IMG/VR virus record: IMGVR_UViG_3300029068_000019
Length of the DNA: 12,528 nt
Source: a virus
Taxonomy: Duplodnaviria; Heunggongvirae; Uroviricota; Caudoviricetes
Reading direction: 5' to 3' (one strand)
Positions within the stretch are counted from its first letter, which is position 1; every line of letters begins with the position of its first letter. Positions 332-7,852 of this stretch are shown here, in pieces. The position numbers and the translations under genes are program-made. The notes under the pieces were generated by a model. The model saw nothing but the letters and a program-made list of their open reading frames with translations, was not told where the DNA came from and did no database searches.

Positions 332-583
332 ATGATGAACATCGAAGAACTGCGTAAAAATTTTTGTGAAGATGGCCTCTATGCTGTGTGCGTTGAAAAT
401 GGAAATCTTGTTAGTCATTACCGCATTATGTGTTTGCGAAAGAATGGGGCTGCGTTAATTAATTTTGTGGATGGTCGAGTGACAGACGGATTTATCTTGC
501 GCGAAGGTGAGTTTGTCACTTCATTACAGGCACTGAAAGAGATCGGAATAAAAGCAGGCTTTTCAGCTTTTGCAGAAGAATAA
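332..583 (+). CDS. rem: Rem-like small prophage protein (83 aa, function unknown)
   Basis: 83-aa ORF with tandem ATG ATG start and GGAAGGA Shine-Dalgarno 6 nt upstream. Length, MMNIEELRK N-terminus and position between hok and the ydfU-like gene match rem of the Qin prophage as I recall it. Confidence 0.75.
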   Translation: MMNIEELRKNFCEDGLYAVCVENGNLVSHYRIMCLRKNGAALINFVDGRVTDGFILREGEFVTSLQALKEIGIKAGFSAFAEE

Positions 584-649
584 ACTCATCTACAATCTTG
601 CGCGGGGCTGAACTCCCGCTGAGTAACACCGTGCCACCGGAGAAAACCG

Positions 650-928
650 ATGGCACGCAACGTAAAATATTACAATTCTGATAATTCGCCCGTTCTTGTC
701 TGCACGCACGAGCGGTATTCTCACGCATTCAAGTCTGAATGGTTCCAACACCCTCCATGCACTGAAGAGCAGGCTGAATGGATAATTCAGTGTTACCGCA
801 GGCGCGGATACGAGGTTAAGAAAGCCCTTAGTCTCGACTACCGTCACTGGATAATCTCAGTCAGATTGCCTTACTCCGAACGCCCACCGCGTCCGTCCCG
901 TACATTCCAGCAACGCATCTGGAGGTAA
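650..928 (+). CDS. Hypothetical small prophage protein (92 aa), translationally coupled to the downstream DUF968 gene
   Basis: ATG preceded by GGAGAAAA. The stop TAA at 926-928 lies inside the GGAGGTAA ribosome-binding site of the next gene, whose GTG is at 930. No family recognised. Confidence 0.5.
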   Translation: MARNVKYYNSDNSPVLVCTHERYSHAFKSEWFQHPPCTEEQAEWIIQCYRRRGYEVKKALSLDYRHWIISVRLPYSERPPRPSRTFQQRIWR

Positions 929-929
929 C

Positions 930-1979
930 GTGCGGGTATTACTTCGACCTGTTCTGGTACCGGAACTTGGGCTGGTGGTCGTTAAGCCGGGCCGTGAATC
1001 CATGCCGGTATTCCACAATACCCGGGTACTGGTGGAGCCGGAACCGAAAAGCATGCGTAATCTGCCGTCCGGGGTCGTTCCTGCCGTTCGCCAGCCGCTG
1101 GTGGAAGACAAAACATTGCTGCCGTTTTTCAGTAACGCACGGGTAATTCGTGCTGCTGGTGGTGCTGGTGCATTGTCTGACTGGCTGTTGCGCCATATTA
1201 AATCCTGCCAGTGGCCACACGGCGATTATCATCACAGCGAAACCGTTATTCACCGATATGGTACCGGCGCAATGGTGTTGTGCTGGCACTGCGACAACCA
1301 GCTGCGTGACCAGACATCCGAATCACTCGAGCAACTTGCTCATCAAAACCTGTCAGCATGGATGATTGACGTCATCGGTCACGCAATAAGCGGTACGCAG
1401 GAGCGTGAATTATCTCTGGCTGAATTATCCTGGTGGGCGGTCCGCAATCAGCTGGCGGACGCGCTACCGGAAGCGGTATTACGTCGCTCGCTGGGATTAC
1501 CAGCGGAAAAAATCTGCTCGGTGTACCGCGAAAGCGACATCGTACCGGGAGAGCAGACCGCCACCAGCATATTGAAACAGCGCACAAAAAATCTTGCACC
1601 GTTGCCTCACGCCCACCAGCAACAAAACCCATCACAGGAAAAGACGGTGGTAAGCATCACCGTTGATCCAGAGTCTCCGGAATCTTTCATGAAGCTGCCT
1701 AAACGTCACCGGTGGGTTAAGGAGAAATACACACGCTGGGTTAAGACACAGCCGTGTGCTTGCTGCGGTATGCCAGCCGACGATCCGCATCATCTGATTG
1801 GTCACGGGCAGGGCGGAATGGGAACCAAAGCACATGATCTCTTTGTTTTGCCTTTGTGCAGAAAGCATCACGACGAGTTGCATACGGATACCGTGGCATT
1901 TGAAGAGAAGTATGGCTCCCAACTGGAGCTGATTTTTCGATTTATCGATCGCGCGCTGGCAATTGGTGTGCTGGCCTAA
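930..1979 (+). CDS. ydfU: DUF968 / YdfU-like prophage protein with C-terminal HNH-like zinc-finger nuclease motif
   Basis: 349-aa ORF, GTG start with GGAGGT Shine-Dalgarno. C-terminus carries CACCG...HHLIGHG...C..HH.ELH, a Cys/His arrangement like the NinG/Rap-type HNH fold. Length and position upstream of Q match ydfU of Qin. Confidence 0.8.
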
Positions 1980-2501: not shown

Positions 2502-2529
2502 CTAATAAGTATCATTTCGGGTGGGGATT

Positions 2530-3054
2530 TTATTGTTTAACCCATAATAGTTCATTGACATTGAATCCCAACTTTTGAGCGGTACGCACATAGTCTGCTT
2601 TTACATTATCTGGAATAGTTTGGGTCCTTGCCAGAATCCATAGGTATTCTCTGTTCGGACCACTGACAAGAGCATACTTATACTCATCATCCAGTTTGAT
2701 TACATTATAGCCACCATAGAAGGGGCCAAAAAACGAAACTTTCAACGCTGCAGTTTTAGTATCTCCAGTAAAGTATGCTTTACCTTCGCTCTCGCTCCAT
2801 TTGTTTTTCGTTGGATCGTATCCACGGTTAAGTACGCGAATCCCTCCGTCGTTCCGTTTTTCATAAGTAGCGCTGACCTGTTCCAGACCACGTTCGAACC
2901 AGTTCTCGAGGCGAGCTATTTCATACCATTTTCCGAGGTAGCGGTTGGCGTCAAAATTTGTAATCGGCTGCACACCTTTAGGTGGTGTCGGGGCCTTACA
3001 TGCTATAAGAGTGAAAGAGAGTGCAATGCCAGTCAACACAGGCCATAACTTCAT
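2530..3054 (-). CDS. Blc-like bacterial lipocalin, predicted outer-membrane lipoprotein
   Basis: 174 aa. Signal peptide with lipobox LIAC (Cys19). Motifs NFDANRYLGKWYEIAR, KAYFTG, LKVSFFGPFYGGYNVI and YLWILART match E. coli Blc almost residue for residue in the conserved regions. AGGA Shine-Dalgarno 6 nt upstream on the - strand. Confidence 0.85.
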   Translation of the reverse strand: MKLWPVLTGIALSFTLIACKAPTPPKGVQPITNFDANRYLGKWYEIARLENWFERGLEQVSATYEKRNDGGIRVLNRGYDPTKNKWSESEGKAYFTGDTKTAALKVSFFGPFYGGYNVIKLDDEYKYALVSGPNREYLWILARTQTIPDNVKADYVRTAQKLGFNVNELLWVKQ

Positions 3055-3246
3055 AATAAATCCTGTACTTTTGATAGTTGAGAGTAAGTATGAAAGATAG
3101 ATGAGTACGACCGATCACTTAAAGAACTTTCCTACTATATTAGGAATAGTCAATAACAGAAAAATTGTCAGTGATGAAGCCAGAAAGGCAATTTAGTCCG
3201 TGCACTACAAAGTTTATGTGTTAATGAATTAGTCAAGGGGGAGGAA

Positions 3247-4206
3247 ATGATAAAAAAACCTGTGATTGGGATCAGCGGTTGTTTGGGCGGTTCTGCTGTT
3301 CGTTTTGATGGTGGTCACAAAAGAGATGACTTTTTAATGGACAAATTAGTGGAATGGGTAACATTCAGACCAGTATGTCCGGAAATGGCTATAGGGCTGC
3401 CAGTTCCGCGTCCTGCTCTACGACTTGTGCGCTCGAAGCAAGGAAATATACGGATGTGTTTCAGCCACGACCAGAATGAGGATGTGACAGAGAGAATGAC
3501 AGAGTTTAGTCGTTCTTATATGGACAAATTAAAGGATGTATCGGGGTTTGTGGTTTGTGCTAAATCTCCCAGCTGTGGCATGGAGCGCGTGCGTGTCTAT
3601 GATGAAAATGGTAATCGAGGTCGTAAAGATGGAGTGGGACTATTTACGAGCACTTTGATGGAAAAGTTTTCCTGGCTACCGGTTGAAGAGGATGGGCGAT
3701 TACATGATCCAGTGCTTCGTGAGAATTTTATTGAAAGAGTTTTTGCTTTGCATGAGCTCAATCACCTTTACAAGGAGAAATTATCAAGAAGAGAGTTATT
3801 AGCTTTTCATAGTCGTTATAAGCTTCAGTTGTTGGCGCATAGCCAGGCAGGCTATAAAGATATGGGACCATTTGTGGCTGCAATACACGAGTGGGCGGAC
3901 CTTGAATCATACTTTGAGGTGTATCGTGATAATCTGATGGCGATTCTCAGAAAACCAGCATCACGTAAAAATCACACGAATGTGCTGATGCATATACAAG
4001 GGTATTTTAGTAATTACTTAAGTACACGCCAGCGTAAAGAGTTGAGCGAGGTTATACTTAACTATCGCTTTGGCACATTGCCTCTTCTTGCGCCGTTGAC
4101 TCTGCTGAAGCATTATCTGGGTGAGTATCCTAATGATTACTTGCTTACACAGAACTACTTCGATCCCTATCCGGAAGAACTGGCTCTAAGACTGATGGTG
4201 AATTAA
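3247..4206 (+). CDS. DUF523 (TudS-like thiouracil desulfidase fold) fused to DUF1722 (YbgA-like)
   Basis: 319 aa with GGGGGAGG Shine-Dalgarno. N-terminus MIKKPVIGISGCLGGSAVRFDGGHK is the DUF523 signature. Cys12, Cys44 and Cys104 sit where the three [4Fe-4S] ligands of TudS-type enzymes are reported, from memory. The C-terminal ~160 aa is YbgA/DUF1722-like. Confidence 0.8.
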   Translation: MIKKPVIGISGCLGGSAVRFDGGHKRDDFLMDKLVEWVTFRPVCPEMAIGLPVPRPALRLVRSKQGNIRMCFSHDQNEDVTERMTEFSRSYMDKLKDVSGFVVCAKSPSCGMERVRVYDENGNRGRKDGVGLFTSTLMEKFSWLPVEEDGRLHDPVLRENFIERVFALHELNHLYKEKLSRRELLAFHSRYKLQLLAHSQAGYKDMGPFVAAIHEWADLESYFEVYRDNLMAILRKPASRKNHTNVLMHIQGYFSNYLSTRQRKELSEVILNYRFGTLPLLAPLTLLKHYLGEYPNDYLLTQNYFDPYPEELALRLMVN

Positions 4207-4612
4207 CTGTATGCGATATCATCTGAAAGTGATGAGTTCCTGTATGCAGGATATTTACAATCGTAAAAACTACGCTATGATGCTCATAGTGTCAGTTTTT
4301 ATAAAAATCCTGTTCACGCTAAAGAAGACATTGAGATGCAATTTAATGTTGGTAAACATACCAGCCCCAAAAGATTTTATTCAATCTGTTTTTATATGAA
4401 GATATTTCAAGTGAATATTAAGAGCATATAATATTATTATTGCACGCAGCTATTATAATATAACAGATTAGTTTAATGATTTGTTTTTTGTGAGTTAAAC
4501 ACATGGTTTTATAGTTGTGATGCAATGAGATTTTCCTTATTGTTGAACTGGCGAATATTGATTTTCCACCTATACTTACCTGGTGTAACCCCAATGATAT
4601 CAGGTGGATAAT

Positions 4613-5326
4613 ATGCCATACATATGTTCTATCATTTTGGTGTTGAACTCGTTTGGTGTCCGAATTGGTAAAGAAGATATTTTGTTTAAAAAAGGAAATG
4701 CTGTCCTCATTGAATACAATTTAAAAGATCTTTTTTCGTCAAATACAGATCATCTAATGATCGTAGATGTTGAGGAGAAAACAGTTAATGATTTCTTTAA
4801 AAACTACACACTCTCACCTTTTTCTGTAAGAAGGTTTTATCCGTCATACTTGATAGTAGAATGTGAAGATTTTTCATTGTTAAAGAACTTGGTTGCATGC
4901 TTGAATTGTGATAGCAAAACCGTGGATGTAGTTAGAAATCAAATATCACTTGCATGTCTTGCTGTCTTATCTTCAGAGAAAATAGTGCAAAGTTTTTTGT
5001 TCGGAAGTCTTAATAGCTTAGGTTGTAAAGTTAAGGCTATTATTCACTCGGATATCTCTGCGTCATGGAGACTTTGTGATATATCTTCAAGATTATATAT
5101 GAGCGAGAGTTTGTTAAAAAGAAAATTAAAAGACGAAGGATTATCGTTTAGTAAATTAATTCTTGAAGAACGAATGATGATGGCGCAAAGATTATTGATC
5201 TACAGTAACCATACTGTCGGCAAGGTGGCGGGAATATGCGGGTATGACAATGCATCATATTTTGTAAGTGTTTTTAGAGGATATTTTGGTGTGCCTCCGC
5301 ACCAATATTTATCAAGATTTTCTTAG
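4613..5326 (+). CDS. AraC/XylS-family transcriptional regulator (AppY/GadX/PatE-like)
   Basis: 237 aa from ATG 4613 (AGGTGG Shine-Dalgarno 5 nt upstream; the ORF track starts at GTG 4604). The C-terminal ~100 aa carries the two AraC helix-turn-helix units (...LLKRKLKDEGLSFSKLILEERMMMAQRLL...GYDNASYFVSVFRGYFGVPPHQY). Gene and its upstream region are strongly AT-rich. Confidence 0.8.
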   Translation: MPYICSIILVLNSFGVRIGKEDILFKKGNAVLIEYNLKDLFSSNTDHLMIVDVEEKTVNDFFKNYTLSPFSVRRFYPSYLIVECEDFSLLKNLVACLNCDSKTVDVVRNQISLACLAVLSSEKIVQSFLFGSLNSLGCKVKAIIHSDISASWRLCDISSRLYMSESLLKRKLKDEGLSFSKLILEERMMMAQRLLIYSNHTVGKVAGICGYDNASYFVSVFRGYFGVPPHQYLSRFS

Positions 5327-7072: not shown

Positions 7073-7323
7073 ATTAATATTAAATCGGATTATTTTTAGC
7101 GCTGAATGTGAAATTTAAATAAAAAGGACTCTTCCATGAGTCAAAATCCTTGAAATCTTAAGGGTAAGATAAAAGGTCATTAGACAGAATGACACGTTTT
7201 ATTAATAAATAAAGCTATTGTTTCATTCGTGTGTTTTTCTTTACAAAAGTAATCCTTGCTATGGTTGGTTAATCATGCGTTAATGGTGTTCTGGTTTGTT
7301 ACAAAATTATCTGAAGCAGTCAT

Positions 7324-7332
7324 TGTTATAAT
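7324..7332 (+). promoter_or_regulatory. Candidate extended -10 promoter (TGtTATAAT) for the cold-shock gene, implying a ~100-nt leader
   Basis: Perfect TATAAT at 7327-7332 with TG at 7324-7325, inside a long AT-rich untranslated region. No convincing -35. Confidence 0.3.
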
Positions 7333-7432
7333 TTTATTATTTGTACCTCTTGAGATTTCCTTGTTGGTTTTTCTCTCTGATATTTTTTTTCGGACCATTC
7401 TGCCCAAGGGCTAACTTCTTCAAAAGGTAATA

Positions 7433-7648
7433 ATGATGTCTAACAAAATGACTGGTTTAGTGAAATGGTTTAACCCTGAAAAAGGTTTTGGTTTCATCAC
7501 GCCGAAAGATGGTAGCAAAGATGTGTTTGTGCATTTCTCAGCTATTCAGAGCAACGATTTCAAAACGTTAACTGAGAATCAGGAAGTCGAATTTGGTATT
7601 GAGAACGGACCTAAAGGCCCTGCAGCTGTTCATGTAGTGGCACTTTGA
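7433..7648 (+). CDS. CspA-family cold-shock protein (CspB/CspI-like)
   Basis: [24 protein letters not shown]...VFVHFSAIQ carries the RNP1/RNP2 motifs. The true start may be the second ATG at 7436 (MSNKMTG...). AAGG Shine-Dalgarno upstream. Confidence 0.9.
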
Positions 7649-7852
7649 GGTAGAAAATATTACAAACCATATTCACTTTAGATGCCCGTGTTGCCATGGT
7701 TCTCAGTATAGAACATCATCTTTTGATGTTTCTGACAGAAATCCTTTCGGGGCAAAATGTATCTTTTGTAAATCAATGATGATTACATTTGATAATATTT
7801 CACAATACTTAAATGTTAGCCATCTGTCGTTAGATTTAAGAAAGTGAAAATG

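What the first reader, a model, noticed from the sequence alone, without database searches (positions are those of the whole stretch)
650..1979. Translationally coupled pair: unknown 92-aa protein plus DUF968/YdfU-like protein with an HNH-like motif
The 92-aa ORF stops inside the ribosome-binding site of the ydfU-like gene, with 1 nt between stop and start. The YdfU-like protein ends in a C-x2-C ... HH ... C-x2-HH arrangement resembling the HNH/NinG(Rap)-type nuclease zinc finger, while its N-terminal ~250 aa is unassigned. A small partner plus a putative nuclease in the nin region could be a recombination function or an unrecognised exclusion or toxin-like module. Function of DUF968 proteins is, to my knowledge, unresolved.
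Basis: partly seen in the sequence, partly recalled or inferred. Interest (0 to 1): 0.5.

Follow-up and report, generated by a model that had tools for sequence, protein, structure and literature searches.

The report
Prophage HNH nuclease gene with small partner
This is the E. coli prophage gene ydfU, a predicted DNA-cutting enzyme already classed as an HNH nuclease, preceded by a real but uncharacterised 92-codon gene that feeds ribosomes into it; it is an ordinary phage early-operon arrangement, not a toxin or defence module.

Summary
A 92-aa ORF (650-928) ends TGG-AGG-TAA, one base before the GTG start of ydfU (930-1979), and its last two codons form the ydfU Shine-Dalgarno sequence.

The small ORF is a genuine gene. 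It is intact in 213 of 222 related phage loci, with dN/dS 0.12 in the core against 1.6-3.3 in the other sense frames. A 67-aa version sits in the same coupled position in Klebsiella and Raoultella. It has no informative fold or family match, and K-12 MG1655 carries it unannotated.

Across Enterobacterales, YdfU homologues lie directly upstream of a Q antiterminator (76 of 80). They are almost always tightly abutted to whatever gene precedes them, which is RusA, an antirepressor or a KilA-N protein in most cases. Only 9 of 80 have the small ORF, so it is not an obligate partner. That argues against a toxin-antitoxin or exclusion reading.

Most likely this is a nin-region recombination or DNA-processing nuclease with a lineage-specific accessory gene. 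Low novelty.

The parts
569..596 (+). Promoter-like element (TTTGCA-16 nt-TACAAT). The -10-like TACAAT (591-596) marks the left edge of the sequence shared by all ORF92 loci.
   Evidence: Consensus scan. Upstream contexts differ to the left of TACAAT (rem, hok terminator, others), and each carries a -35/-10-like pair by eye. This is an inference only; no transcription start data were available.
602..619 (+). Conserved leader hairpin GCGGGG-CTGAAC-TCCCGC, 30 nt upstream of the ORF92 start.
   Evidence: 25 of 26 distinct variants keep the stem. 97.7% of cells are paired against 82.8% in shuffles (0/500). Three of 5 pairs change on both sides, and 9 G-U cells fit only the + strand RNA. There is no Rfam match. 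Function unknown.
639..642 (+). Shine-Dalgarno GGAG for ORF92, 7 nt before the ATG.
   Evidence: Read from the sequence. GAGA/GGAG is conserved in the alignment of leaders.
650..928 (+). ORF92, a small basic protein (pI 9.7). Aa 1-26 are variable and predicted disordered. Aa 27-92 are the conserved core, with a beta-alpha-beta-beta fold at aa 29-74 followed by a Pro/Arg-rich tail.
   Evidence: phrog_1212 matches aa 27-92. The 67-aa Klebsiella/Raoultella form equals the core.
921..932 (+). Coupling junction: GGAGG (the SD for ydfU, encoded by the W91-R92 codons), the TAA stop, one base, then the GTG start.
   Evidence: The junction is essentially invariant in 216 loci, and the variation just upstream of it is mostly at synonymous positions of the Gln and Arg codons. 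In Klebsiella the equivalent is TGGAGGGATTGATG, with a 1-nt stop/start overlap.
930..1304 (+). YdfU N-terminal domain (aa 1-125): beta-rich start, helices, then a beta-hairpin plus helix (aa 105-125). C93, C118, W119 and D122 are invariant or nearly so (motif CQ...LCWH[CH]DN). This is probably a structural zinc site. It is the most constrained part of the protein.
   Evidence: Alignment A3, AF2 model, dN/dS 0.046 for aa 61-130. No Pfam match. Similarity to the HNH domain is not significant.
1320..1604 (+). YdfU helical middle region (aa 131-225). The start of the Pfam DUF968 match falls here.
1605..1715 (+). Flexible linker (aa 226-262, with pLDDT < 50 at aa 228-239). It is also a mosaic recombination boundary.
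   Evidence: Homology to the Stx and PPompW phages ends at about window 1680. Distances in the HNH domain are nearly uncorrelated with the rest of the gene (r 0.11-0.21).
1716..1979 (+). YdfU C-terminal HNH / His-Me finger nuclease domain (aa 263-349). Zn ligands are C276, C279, C310 and H313. Catalytic or metal residues are H288, H314 and H318.

Best explanation
ORF92-ydfU is a two-gene cassette at the end of the delayed-early (nin-equivalent) operon of Qin/mEp460-like lambdoid phages, immediately upstream of the late antiterminator gene Q.

YdfU is a multi-domain DNA endonuclease:
- an unassigned, strongly constrained N-terminal Cys/His domain, followed by a helical region;
- a flexible linker;
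- a C-terminal zinc-stabilised HNH (beta-beta-alpha-metal) catalytic domain, of the same lineage as DLP12 YbcO, P1 Ref and staphylococcal phage phiNM1 Gp16.

By analogy with Ref and Gp16, and from its position among RusA, Orf and Rap-type functions, it most likely nicks or cuts DNA during lytic growth. The targets would be recombination or replication intermediates, possibly acted on together with RecA. This is inferred, not shown.

ORF92 encodes a small basic protein whose amino-acid sequence is under purifying selection. Its last two codons are the ydfU ribosome-binding site, and its stop lies one base before the weak GTG start. Ribosomes finishing ORF92 are therefore expected to re-initiate on ydfU, which would tie YdfU synthesis to translation of ORF92. 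This coupling is inferred from the anatomy.

ORF92 is a lineage-specific accessory found in Escherichia/Shigella and Klebsiella/Raoultella. It is not a required partner of the nuclease.

In the resting K-12 prophage, transcription into ydfU is reported to be blocked by a strong Rho-dependent terminator in this interval.
For: ORF92 is a real gene:
- 142 homologue clusters were found; every one that carries a species name is Escherichia or Shigella, and most full-length members are 90-92 aa.
- It is intact in 213 of 222 loci.
- dN/dS is 0.12 in the core, against 1.6-3.3 in the other sense frames.
- A 2-codon in-frame indel is tolerated.
- The pair is present in isolated phages such as HannyBb, PhiR42_1, mEp460 and Tritos.

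The coupling anatomy is conserved:
- The junction is essentially invariant in Escherichia.
- Klebsiella and Raoultella have the same layout at about 35-40% (ORF) and 50% (YdfU) identity.
- YdfU homologues abut or overlap the preceding gene in nearly all of 80 genomes.

YdfU is an HNH nuclease:
- Pfam DUF968 and phrog_96 'HNH endonuclease'.
- AF2 pLDDT 87.5.
- hhalign to YbcO and Ref gives about 1e-5.
- The catalytic and Zn residues are invariant in 14 homologues and align with the residues shown to matter in Gp16.
- dN/dS for ydfU is 0.16.

Genomic context:
- Q-type antiterminators of three unrelated kinds follow YdfU in 76 of 80 genomes.
- RusA is the immediate neighbour in 20 of 80.

Literature:
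- PMC5714182 places YdfU with YbcO in His-Me group 7.
- PMC4118853 describes DUF968 as a DNA-binding domain plus HNH.
- PMC12817073 shows that Gp16 is a RecA-interacting nickase that promotes phage propagation.
- PMC9160355 reports the Rho terminator upstream of ydfU.
Against: - No activity of YdfU or of any close relative (>30% identity over the full length) has been measured.
- The N-terminal 230 residues have no recognisable relative, so substrate choice is a guess.
- Some distant full-length homologues have lost the catalytic HH motif (P0328, P0347, P0374), so a non-catalytic role is possible for the family.
- Translation of ORF92 is not demonstrated. The strong Rho termination reported in this interval in K-12 is what one expects of poorly translated RNA.
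- The fold of ORF92 gives no functional clue.
Confidence: 0.6

Rival explanations
1. ORF92 is a dedicated regulatory or structural subunit of YdfU. It could be an inhibitor or chaperone that holds a potentially toxic nickase in check, or a factor that sets its substrate. In that case the pair would act as a complex rather than as two independent products.
For: - The adjacency is strict, and the pair is co-inherited. Among loci with enough downstream sequence, all but one have ydfU directly after ORF92.
- Pairwise distances of ORF92 correlate with those of YdfU aa 1-130 (r 0.50), as strongly as within ORF92 itself (r 0.52), while the HNH domain swaps independently.
- The pair is retained across Escherichia and Klebsiella/Raoultella.
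- The C-terminal tail of ORF92 is very constrained (dN/dS 0.07).
- The relative Gp16 is growth-inhibitory when expressed alone.
Against: - 71 of 80 YdfU homologues in other Enterobacterales have no ORF92-like gene next to them, so the nuclease does not need it.
- The distance correlation is what physical linkage alone would give.
- Part of the tail conservation is explained by the embedded SD.
- No complex prediction could be run.
Confidence: 0.2
2. The pair is a toxin-antitoxin, superinfection-exclusion or anti-phage defence module.
For: - An HNH nuclease with a small upstream gene resembles some toxin-immunity layouts.
- Prophage genes downstream of strong Rho terminators are described as toxic.
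- The neighbours hokD and rem are moron-like genes.
Against: - There are no PADLOC hits for either protein.
- The small gene is absent from most YdfU loci.
- The position is fixed in the core early operon, directly before Q, in 76 of 80 genomes rather than in a variable defence island.
- The neighbours in that position are recombination genes and antirepressors.
- The pair is carried by isolated phages.
Confidence: 0.07
3. ORF92 is only a translated leader. Its translation matters for coupling and for protection from Rho, but its peptide has no function of its own.
For: - aa 1-26 evolve almost neutrally (dN/dS 0.63) and are missing in Klebsiella.
- There is no recognisable fold relative.
- A Rho terminator maps to this interval.
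- ydfU is tightly abutted to any upstream gene.
Against: - The core, aa 27-92, has dN/dS 0.07-0.12 with abundant synonymous change (pS 0.38).
- The core is recognisably conserved between genera (hmmsearch E=1.8e-19 to Klebsiella).
- AF2 predicts a compact fold with pLDDT about 85.
Confidence: 0.08
4. YdfU is the HNH accessory factor that assists terminase in cos cleavage, as HK97 gp74 does.
For: Many phage HNH proteins have this role (background stated in PMC12817073).
Against: - ydfU lies about 7.5 kb upstream of the terminase genes, in the early operon.
- The large terminase here is lambda gpA-type and has its own endonuclease domain (GpA_nuclease E=1.1e-85).
- In 76 of 80 genomes the neighbour is Q, not terminase.
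Confidence: 0.03

Closest known systems
E. coli K-12 Qin prophage YdfU (b1560) / Pfam DUF968 (PF06147)
   Same: This is an orthologue: 349 aa, about 91% identity, in the same rem-...-ydfU-Q context. It gives a full-length Pfam match far above threshold.
   Different: Nothing material. K-12 also has the intact 92-aa ORF, but it is not annotated there. The Q gene is of a different type in K-12 (ydfT, 250 aa) than in the window (125-aa type, and here carrying a nonsense mutation).
DLP12 prophage YbcO (DUF1364, PDB 3g27)
   Different: YbcO is 96 aa and consists of the nuclease core alone. YdfU has about 260 extra N-terminal residues. YbcO is also functionally untested.
Bacteriophage P1 Ref (RecA-dependent HNH endonuclease, PDB 3plw; Pfam RecA_dep_nuc)
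   Different: The Pfam RecA_dep_nuc score is 15.2 bits, below the 26.9 cut-off. The N-terminus of Ref is a disordered basic 76-residue segment (PMC4330346), whereas YdfU has folded domains. RecA dependence of YdfU is untested.
Staphylococcus phage phiNM1 Gp16 (Pfam HNHc_6; RecA-interacting nickase, PMC12817073)
   Same: The HNH domains are homologous: BLASTP E=6e-9, 37% identity over 59 residues. C148/C181/H184 and H157/H185/H189 of Gp16 align with C279/C310/H313 and H288/H314/H318 of YdfU. Gp16 also scores on DUF968 (29.1 bits), and YdfU scores on HNHc_6 (24.2 bits). Both are early phage genes.
   Different: The N-terminal domain of Gp16 is NinB/Orf-like. That of YdfU is not recognisably so. 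The host, phage type and gene neighbourhood all differ.
Lambda NinG/Rap (branch-specific endonuclease)
   Same: It occupies the same region of the lambdoid map, between replication genes and Q, and carries an HNH-like motif. This rests on established knowledge and PMC4118853.
   Different: There is no Pfam NinG match at E <= 0.1. YdfU often co-occurs with RusA, which is unlike Rap in lambda.

Membership tests
Pfam DUF968 (PF06147) | HMM score above the curated gathering threshold (27.8 bits) | tested here: met
   257.8 bits, E=6.5e-77, aa 160-346 on profile positions 1-171.
HNH / His-Me finger endonuclease superfamily | beta-beta-alpha-metal fold | tested here: met
HNH / His-Me finger endonuclease superfamily | Catalytic His at the end of strand 1, and metal-binding His or Asn residues on the helix | tested here: met
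   H288, H314 and H318 are invariant in 14 homologues. They align with H157, H185 and H189 of Gp16.
HNH / His-Me finger endonuclease superfamily | Metal-dependent nuclease activity | not testable with these tools
   This needs purified protein and DNA substrates.
P1 Ref family (Pfam RecA_dep_nuc, PF16786) | HMM score above the gathering threshold (26.9 bits) | tested here: not met
P1 Ref family | Cleavage depends on RecA filaments | not testable with these tools
   No computation available here addresses RecA dependence.
Pfam HNHc_6 (PF16784; includes phiNM1 Gp16) | HMM score above the gathering threshold (26.6 bits) | tested here: not met
   24.2 bits, E=2.9e-5, for the window protein. Many close YdfU relatives carry a precomputed PF16784 hit, so this is a borderline sister relationship.
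Lambda NinG/Rap (PF05766) | Sequence membership in the family | tested here: not met
   No hit at E <= 0.1 in Pfam.
Lambda Orf/NinB-like DNA-binding domain (proposed for DUF968 N-terminal parts in PMC4118853) | Orf (RAGNYA) fold in the region preceding the HNH domain | tested here: not met
Toxin-antitoxin / immunity pair | The toxin gene is consistently accompanied by its cognate small partner | tested here: not met
   Only 9 of 80 YdfU homologues have an ORF92-like gene upstream.
Known anti-phage defence systems (PADLOC-DB v2) | Match to a defence-protein model | tested here: not met
   No family at E <= 0.1 for ORF92, YdfU or Rem.
Translationally coupled gene pair | Stop and start within a few bases, with the SD of the distal gene inside the proximal ORF, conserved in relatives | tested here: met
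   GGAGG-TAA-C-GTG is essentially invariant in 216 loci. Klebsiella has TGGAGGGATTGATG with a 1-nt overlap.
Translationally coupled gene pair | Translation of the distal gene depends on translation of the proximal gene | not testable with these tools
   This needs reporter fusions with ORF92 start or stop mutants.
Protein-coding gene (ORF92) | Purifying selection on the amino-acid sequence in the stated frame only | tested here: met
   dN/dS is 0.12 in frame 0 against 3.3 and 1.6 in frames +1 and +2. Both alternative sense frames and two of the three antisense frames have stops in all 90 alleles; the third antisense frame has stops in 68 of 90 and dN/dS 2.3.

The most novel reading that the evidence does not exclude
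ORF92 is a specific protein partner of the YdfU N-terminal domains. It would act as an inhibitor or a targeting subunit of a RecA-linked phage nickase. Its own promoter-like element, the covarying 5' hairpin and the Rho terminator would form a gate that keeps the nuclease silent in the lysogen and releases it on induction. This would define a new small-protein regulator family for His-Me finger nucleases, and it would add a missing gene to the E. coli K-12 annotation.
Probability: 0.15. Interest if true: 0.5.

Novelty: already known. Interest (0 to 1): 0.25.

Why it matters
YdfU-type genes occur in thousands of E. coli genomes: 5,214 of 5,426 complete genomes match this stretch. They are also carried by Stx-converting phages. 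Knowing that they encode an intact HNH nuclease of the Ref/Gp16/YbcO lineage gives a concrete, testable hypothesis for a K-12 'y-ome' gene.

The practical gains from this check are modest:
- A conserved 92-codon gene under purifying selection is missing from the MG1655 reference annotation.
- The interval reported as a strong Rho-dependent terminator 'upstream of ydfU' is in fact largely this ORF plus a conserved leader hairpin.
- The toxin/defence reading can be set aside.

None of this changes how such phage operons are understood.

Tried and rejected
1. Second, degenerate His-Me finger in the YdfU N-terminal domain. The motif CQ...LCWH[CH]DN and a beta-beta-alpha element at aa 105-125 suggested it. 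Support was too weak: hhalign of the N-domain against the HNH domain gave E=0.04-0.06 and probability about 1%; column-shuffle controls reached the observed score in 23 of 200 trials; and a BLASTP side-alignment to Gp16 gave E=0.096. It is kept only as speculation.

2. Apparent fusions of the YdfU N-terminus to tail-fibre, capsid and portal domains (P0264, P0311, P0312, P0292, P0245). These look like deletion chimeras in decayed prophages or assemblies, not domain architectures.

3. Rosetta-stone evidence. One in-frame ORF92-YdfU fusion exists (P0127, consistent with a 13-nt deletion). It is a singleton cluster and says nothing about interaction. The other long 'YdfU' entries are internal duplications or gene-caller extensions.

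4. Programmed +1 frameshift at AGG-TAA joining the two frames. This was considered from the sequence and rejected. The P-site tRNA cannot re-pair on GGU, and the ydfU N-terminus from this start is conserved in distant homologues, many of which begin with ATG at that position.

6. Rfam for the leader hairpin gave no credible match.

7. The AlphaFold DB fold libraries were not available on the machine, so the N-terminal domain could not be compared with predicted structures.

8. The first genome scan, using the 33-sequence alignment, failed for lack of a conserved stretch. It was repeated with 14 sequences.
Full report
**Where the window comes from.** The 12.5-kb window is part of a Qin/mEp460-like lambdoid prophage of E. 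coli. It is 99.9-100% identical over 2.1 kb to many E. coli chromosomes. The gene order is as follows:
- hokD 3' end and its terminator
- rem (332-583)
- the 92-aa ORF (650-928)
- ydfU (930-1979)
- a Q antiterminator
- three cargo genes: a lipocalin, a YbgA-like gene and an AraC-like regulator
- holin, DUF1327, lysozyme and Rz
- a cspA-type leader with a cold-shock gene
- a lambda-type terminase (GpA ATPase and nuclease domains)

**Observation.** The junction is ATC TGG AGG TAA C GTG. GGAGG is at 921-925, the stop at 926-928 and the GTG at 930. RefSeq annotates both genes with these coordinates. The C-terminal motif C276-x2-C279 ... H287-H288 ... C310-x2-H313-H314 ... H318 is present. Pfam DUF968 does cover aa 160-346 and phrog_96 covers the whole protein, so 'about 250 aa unassigned' overstates the gap.

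**Is the 92-aa ORF a gene?** The window contains many chance ORFs of similar length, so I tested conservation.
- A search of 5.8 billion proteins found 142 clusters. Every one that carries a species name is Escherichia or Shigella, most full-length members are 90-92 aa, and identity goes down to 65%.
- In 222 IMG/VR loci the ORF is intact at 90 or 92 aa in 213.
- Nei-Gojobori dN/dS over 90 distinct alleles is 0.22 overall. It is 0.63 for aa 1-26, 0.12 for aa 27-66 and 0.07 for aa 67-92.
- For the core, the other two sense frames give 3.3 and 1.6. Two antisense frames have stops in every allele, and the third has stops in 68 of 90 and dN/dS 2.3.
- The variable N-terminal part tolerates an in-frame 2-codon indel.
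- AF2 predicts a disordered N-terminus and a compact beta-alpha-beta-beta core (aa 29-74, pLDDT about 85), followed by a Pro/Arg-rich tail. The protein is basic, with pI 9.7.

So the ORF is a real protein-coding gene. It has no Pfam, NCBIfam or PADLOC match and belongs only to phrog_1212, whose 66-position profile equals the conserved core. Fold searches gave only generic alpha/beta matches.

K-12 MG1655 carries the ORF intact between rem and ydfU, but the reference annotation has no gene there.

**How tightly are the two genes linked?**
- Starting from ORF92, ydfU follows immediately in 212 of 222 loci. Most of the exceptions are contig ends or loci without a complete ORF, and one locus (L211) was not resolved.
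- The junction is essentially invariant, and the variation just upstream of it is mostly at synonymous positions of the Gln and Arg codons.
- The left neighbour varies: rem in 88 loci, and a hok terminator or other cargo in 121. The shared sequence begins at a -10-like TACAAT.
- Klebsiella and Raoultella prophages carry a 67-aa version consisting of the core only. It lies between a LexA_DNA_bind protein and a 343-347-aa DUF968 protein. The stop overlaps the ydfU ATG by one base, and the same W-R codons form the SD.

The converse test gives the opposite picture. Among 80 YdfU homologues (43-99% identity) from as many Enterobacterales genomes, only 9 have an ORF92-like gene upstream. The others are preceded by Rha/ANT antirepressors (27), RusA (17), KilA-N proteins (13), LexA-like proteins and others, mostly with 4-nt ATGA/GTGA overlaps.

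Tight abutment to the upstream gene is therefore a general property of ydfU, and ORF92 is a lineage-specific occupant of that slot. Downstream, 76 of 80 loci have a Q antiterminator of one of three unrelated types, and 3 have RusA.

**What is YdfU?** Literature already classifies it.
- Curtis et al. 2014 describe DUF968 as a DNA-binding domain fused to a zinc-finger HNH motif (PMC4118853).
- Jablonska et al. 2017 put YdfU with YbcO (PDB 3g27) in His-Me finger group 7 (PMC5714182).

My checks agree with that classification.
- An AF2 model built on 33 diverse homologues has pLDDT 87.5. It shows an N-terminal domain (aa 1-125), a helical region (aa 131-225), a disordered linker (aa 228-239) and a C-terminal beta-beta-alpha domain.
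- Profile comparison gives E about 1e-5 to both YbcO and Ref.
- The phiNM1 protein Gp16, shown in January 2026 to be a RecA-interacting nickase that inhibits host replication and promotes phage propagation (PMC12817073), is an HNHc_6 protein that also scores on DUF968. It aligns with the YdfU HNH domain at E=6e-9.
- In that alignment, all three zinc-site residues and all three catalytic residues mutated in the Gp16 study are conserved in YdfU.
- ydfU is under purifying selection (dN/dS 0.16). The strongest constraint is on aa 61-130 (0.046), which contain the invariant C93, C118, W119 and D122.

That N-terminal region has no detectable relative. Its resemblance to a second, inactive His-Me finger is not statistically supported.

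The HNH domain exchanges independently of the rest of the gene. Homology to the Stx and PPompW phages stops in the linker. Distance matrices for the HNH domain correlate poorly with those for the N-terminal parts (r 0.11-0.21), whereas ORF92 and YdfU aa 1-130 correlate at r 0.50.

**Mechanism.** Three things are shown: two real genes, a conserved coupling anatomy, and an intact HNH active site of the Ref/Gp16/YbcO lineage in the last early-operon position before Q. Three things are inferred:
- YdfU nicks or cuts DNA during lytic growth, probably in recombination or replication-linked processing.
- Its translation is fed by ribosomes terminating on ORF92.
- ORF92 has a protein-level function that is dispensable for the family as a whole.

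The terminase-helper role is unlikely, because the terminase here is gpA-type with its own nuclease domain and lies 7.5 kb away. A toxin-antitoxin or defence role is unlikely given the co-occurrence test, the fixed core-operon position and the absence of PADLOC hits.

**Regulation, noticed on the way.** Between TACAAT (591-596) and the ORF92 start lies a hairpin (602-619) whose stem covaries.
- 25 of 26 distinct variants keep the stem.
- 97.7% of cells are paired against 82.8% in shuffles (0 of 500 shuffles reach the observed value).
- Three of 5 pairs change on both sides.
- Nine G-U cells are compatible only with the + strand RNA.

The alignment used for this count was anchored by hand, and the sequences are related, so the numbers are supportive rather than conclusive. 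Rfam has nothing matching.

A 2022 study lists the terminator 'upstream of ydfU' among the strongest Rho-dependent terminators in K-12. Its supplementary table, as I read it, shows ydfU but not rem responding to Rho/NusG defects (PMC9160355). That would place the terminator in the interval occupied by this leader and ORF92. It fits silencing of the cassette in the lysogen. It is also the main reason to remain cautious about how well ORF92 is translated outside induction.

**Verdict.** The finding is real but ordinary. It consists of a catalogued prophage HNH nuclease gene and a catalogued hypothetical small gene in a typical overlapping phage operon. The new small points are the annotation gap in K-12, the lineage-restricted and selected small protein, the modular swapping of the HNH domain, and the covarying leader hairpin.

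Noticed in passing
window 569-619: A promoter-like TTTGCA-16-TACAAT is followed by an 18-nt hairpin (602-619, loop CTGAAC). The stem covaries across 26 variants, through G-U intermediates that fit only the + strand RNA. It marks the left boundary of the ORF92-ydfU module in all upstream contexts. There is no Rfam family, and its function is unknown.
   Followed up: partly
L222 (NC_000913.3 1640000-1652000) 4307-4585, minus strand: E. coli K-12 MG1655 has the 92-aa ORF intact between rem and ydfU, but the reference annotation lists no gene there. The published 'Rho-dependent terminator upstream of ydfU' (PMC9160355) falls in this interval.
   Followed up: partly
window 2126 (Q gene 1997-2374): A C->T change turns Gln44 (CAA) of the 125-aa Q antiterminator into TAA, relative to strain F11. 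It is the only difference in 2.1 kb. The late-gene activator of this prophage copy is therefore probably inactive.
   Followed up: yes
window 1605-1715 (ydfU linker) and related loci: The HNH domain of ydfU recombines as a separate module. Homology to the Stx2 and PPompW phages ends at about 1680. HNH-domain distances are almost uncorrelated with the N-terminal part (r 0.11), and mean nucleotide divergence is 0.23 against 0.11.
   Followed up: partly
proteins P0328, P0347, P0374 (alignment A3): Some full-length distant YdfU homologues have lost the catalytic HH motif and the GxGGMGxK loop, while keeping the N-terminal Cys motif and the overall length. This suggests that non-catalytic members exist.
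   Followed up: no
window 2530-5326: A three-gene cargo block sits between Q and the holin, the slot that holds stx genes in Stx phages. It comprises a lipocalin (minus strand), a YbgA-like gene (2-thiouracil desulfurase + DUF1722) and an AraC-family regulator.
   Followed up: no
window 7278-7694: An Rfam cspA thermoregulator leader (110 bits) with a cold-shock protein gene (7433-7648) lies between the lysis cassette and the terminase genes.
   Followed up: no
protein P0127 (438 aa): This is a single natural in-frame fusion of ORF92 (aa 1-89) to full-length YdfU, consistent with a 13-nt deletion that removes the SD, the stop and the spacer. It is a singleton cluster from one NCBI contig.
   Followed up: partly
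L303-L306 (Klebsiella/Raoultella prophages) 2528-4247: In these genera the small gene is the middle of a three-gene overlapping chain: LexA_DNA_bind protein, 67-aa ORF, DUF968 protein. A colicin/pyocin-type DNase with its immunity gene and a dinI gene lie just upstream, and hicAB lies downstream.
   Followed up: no
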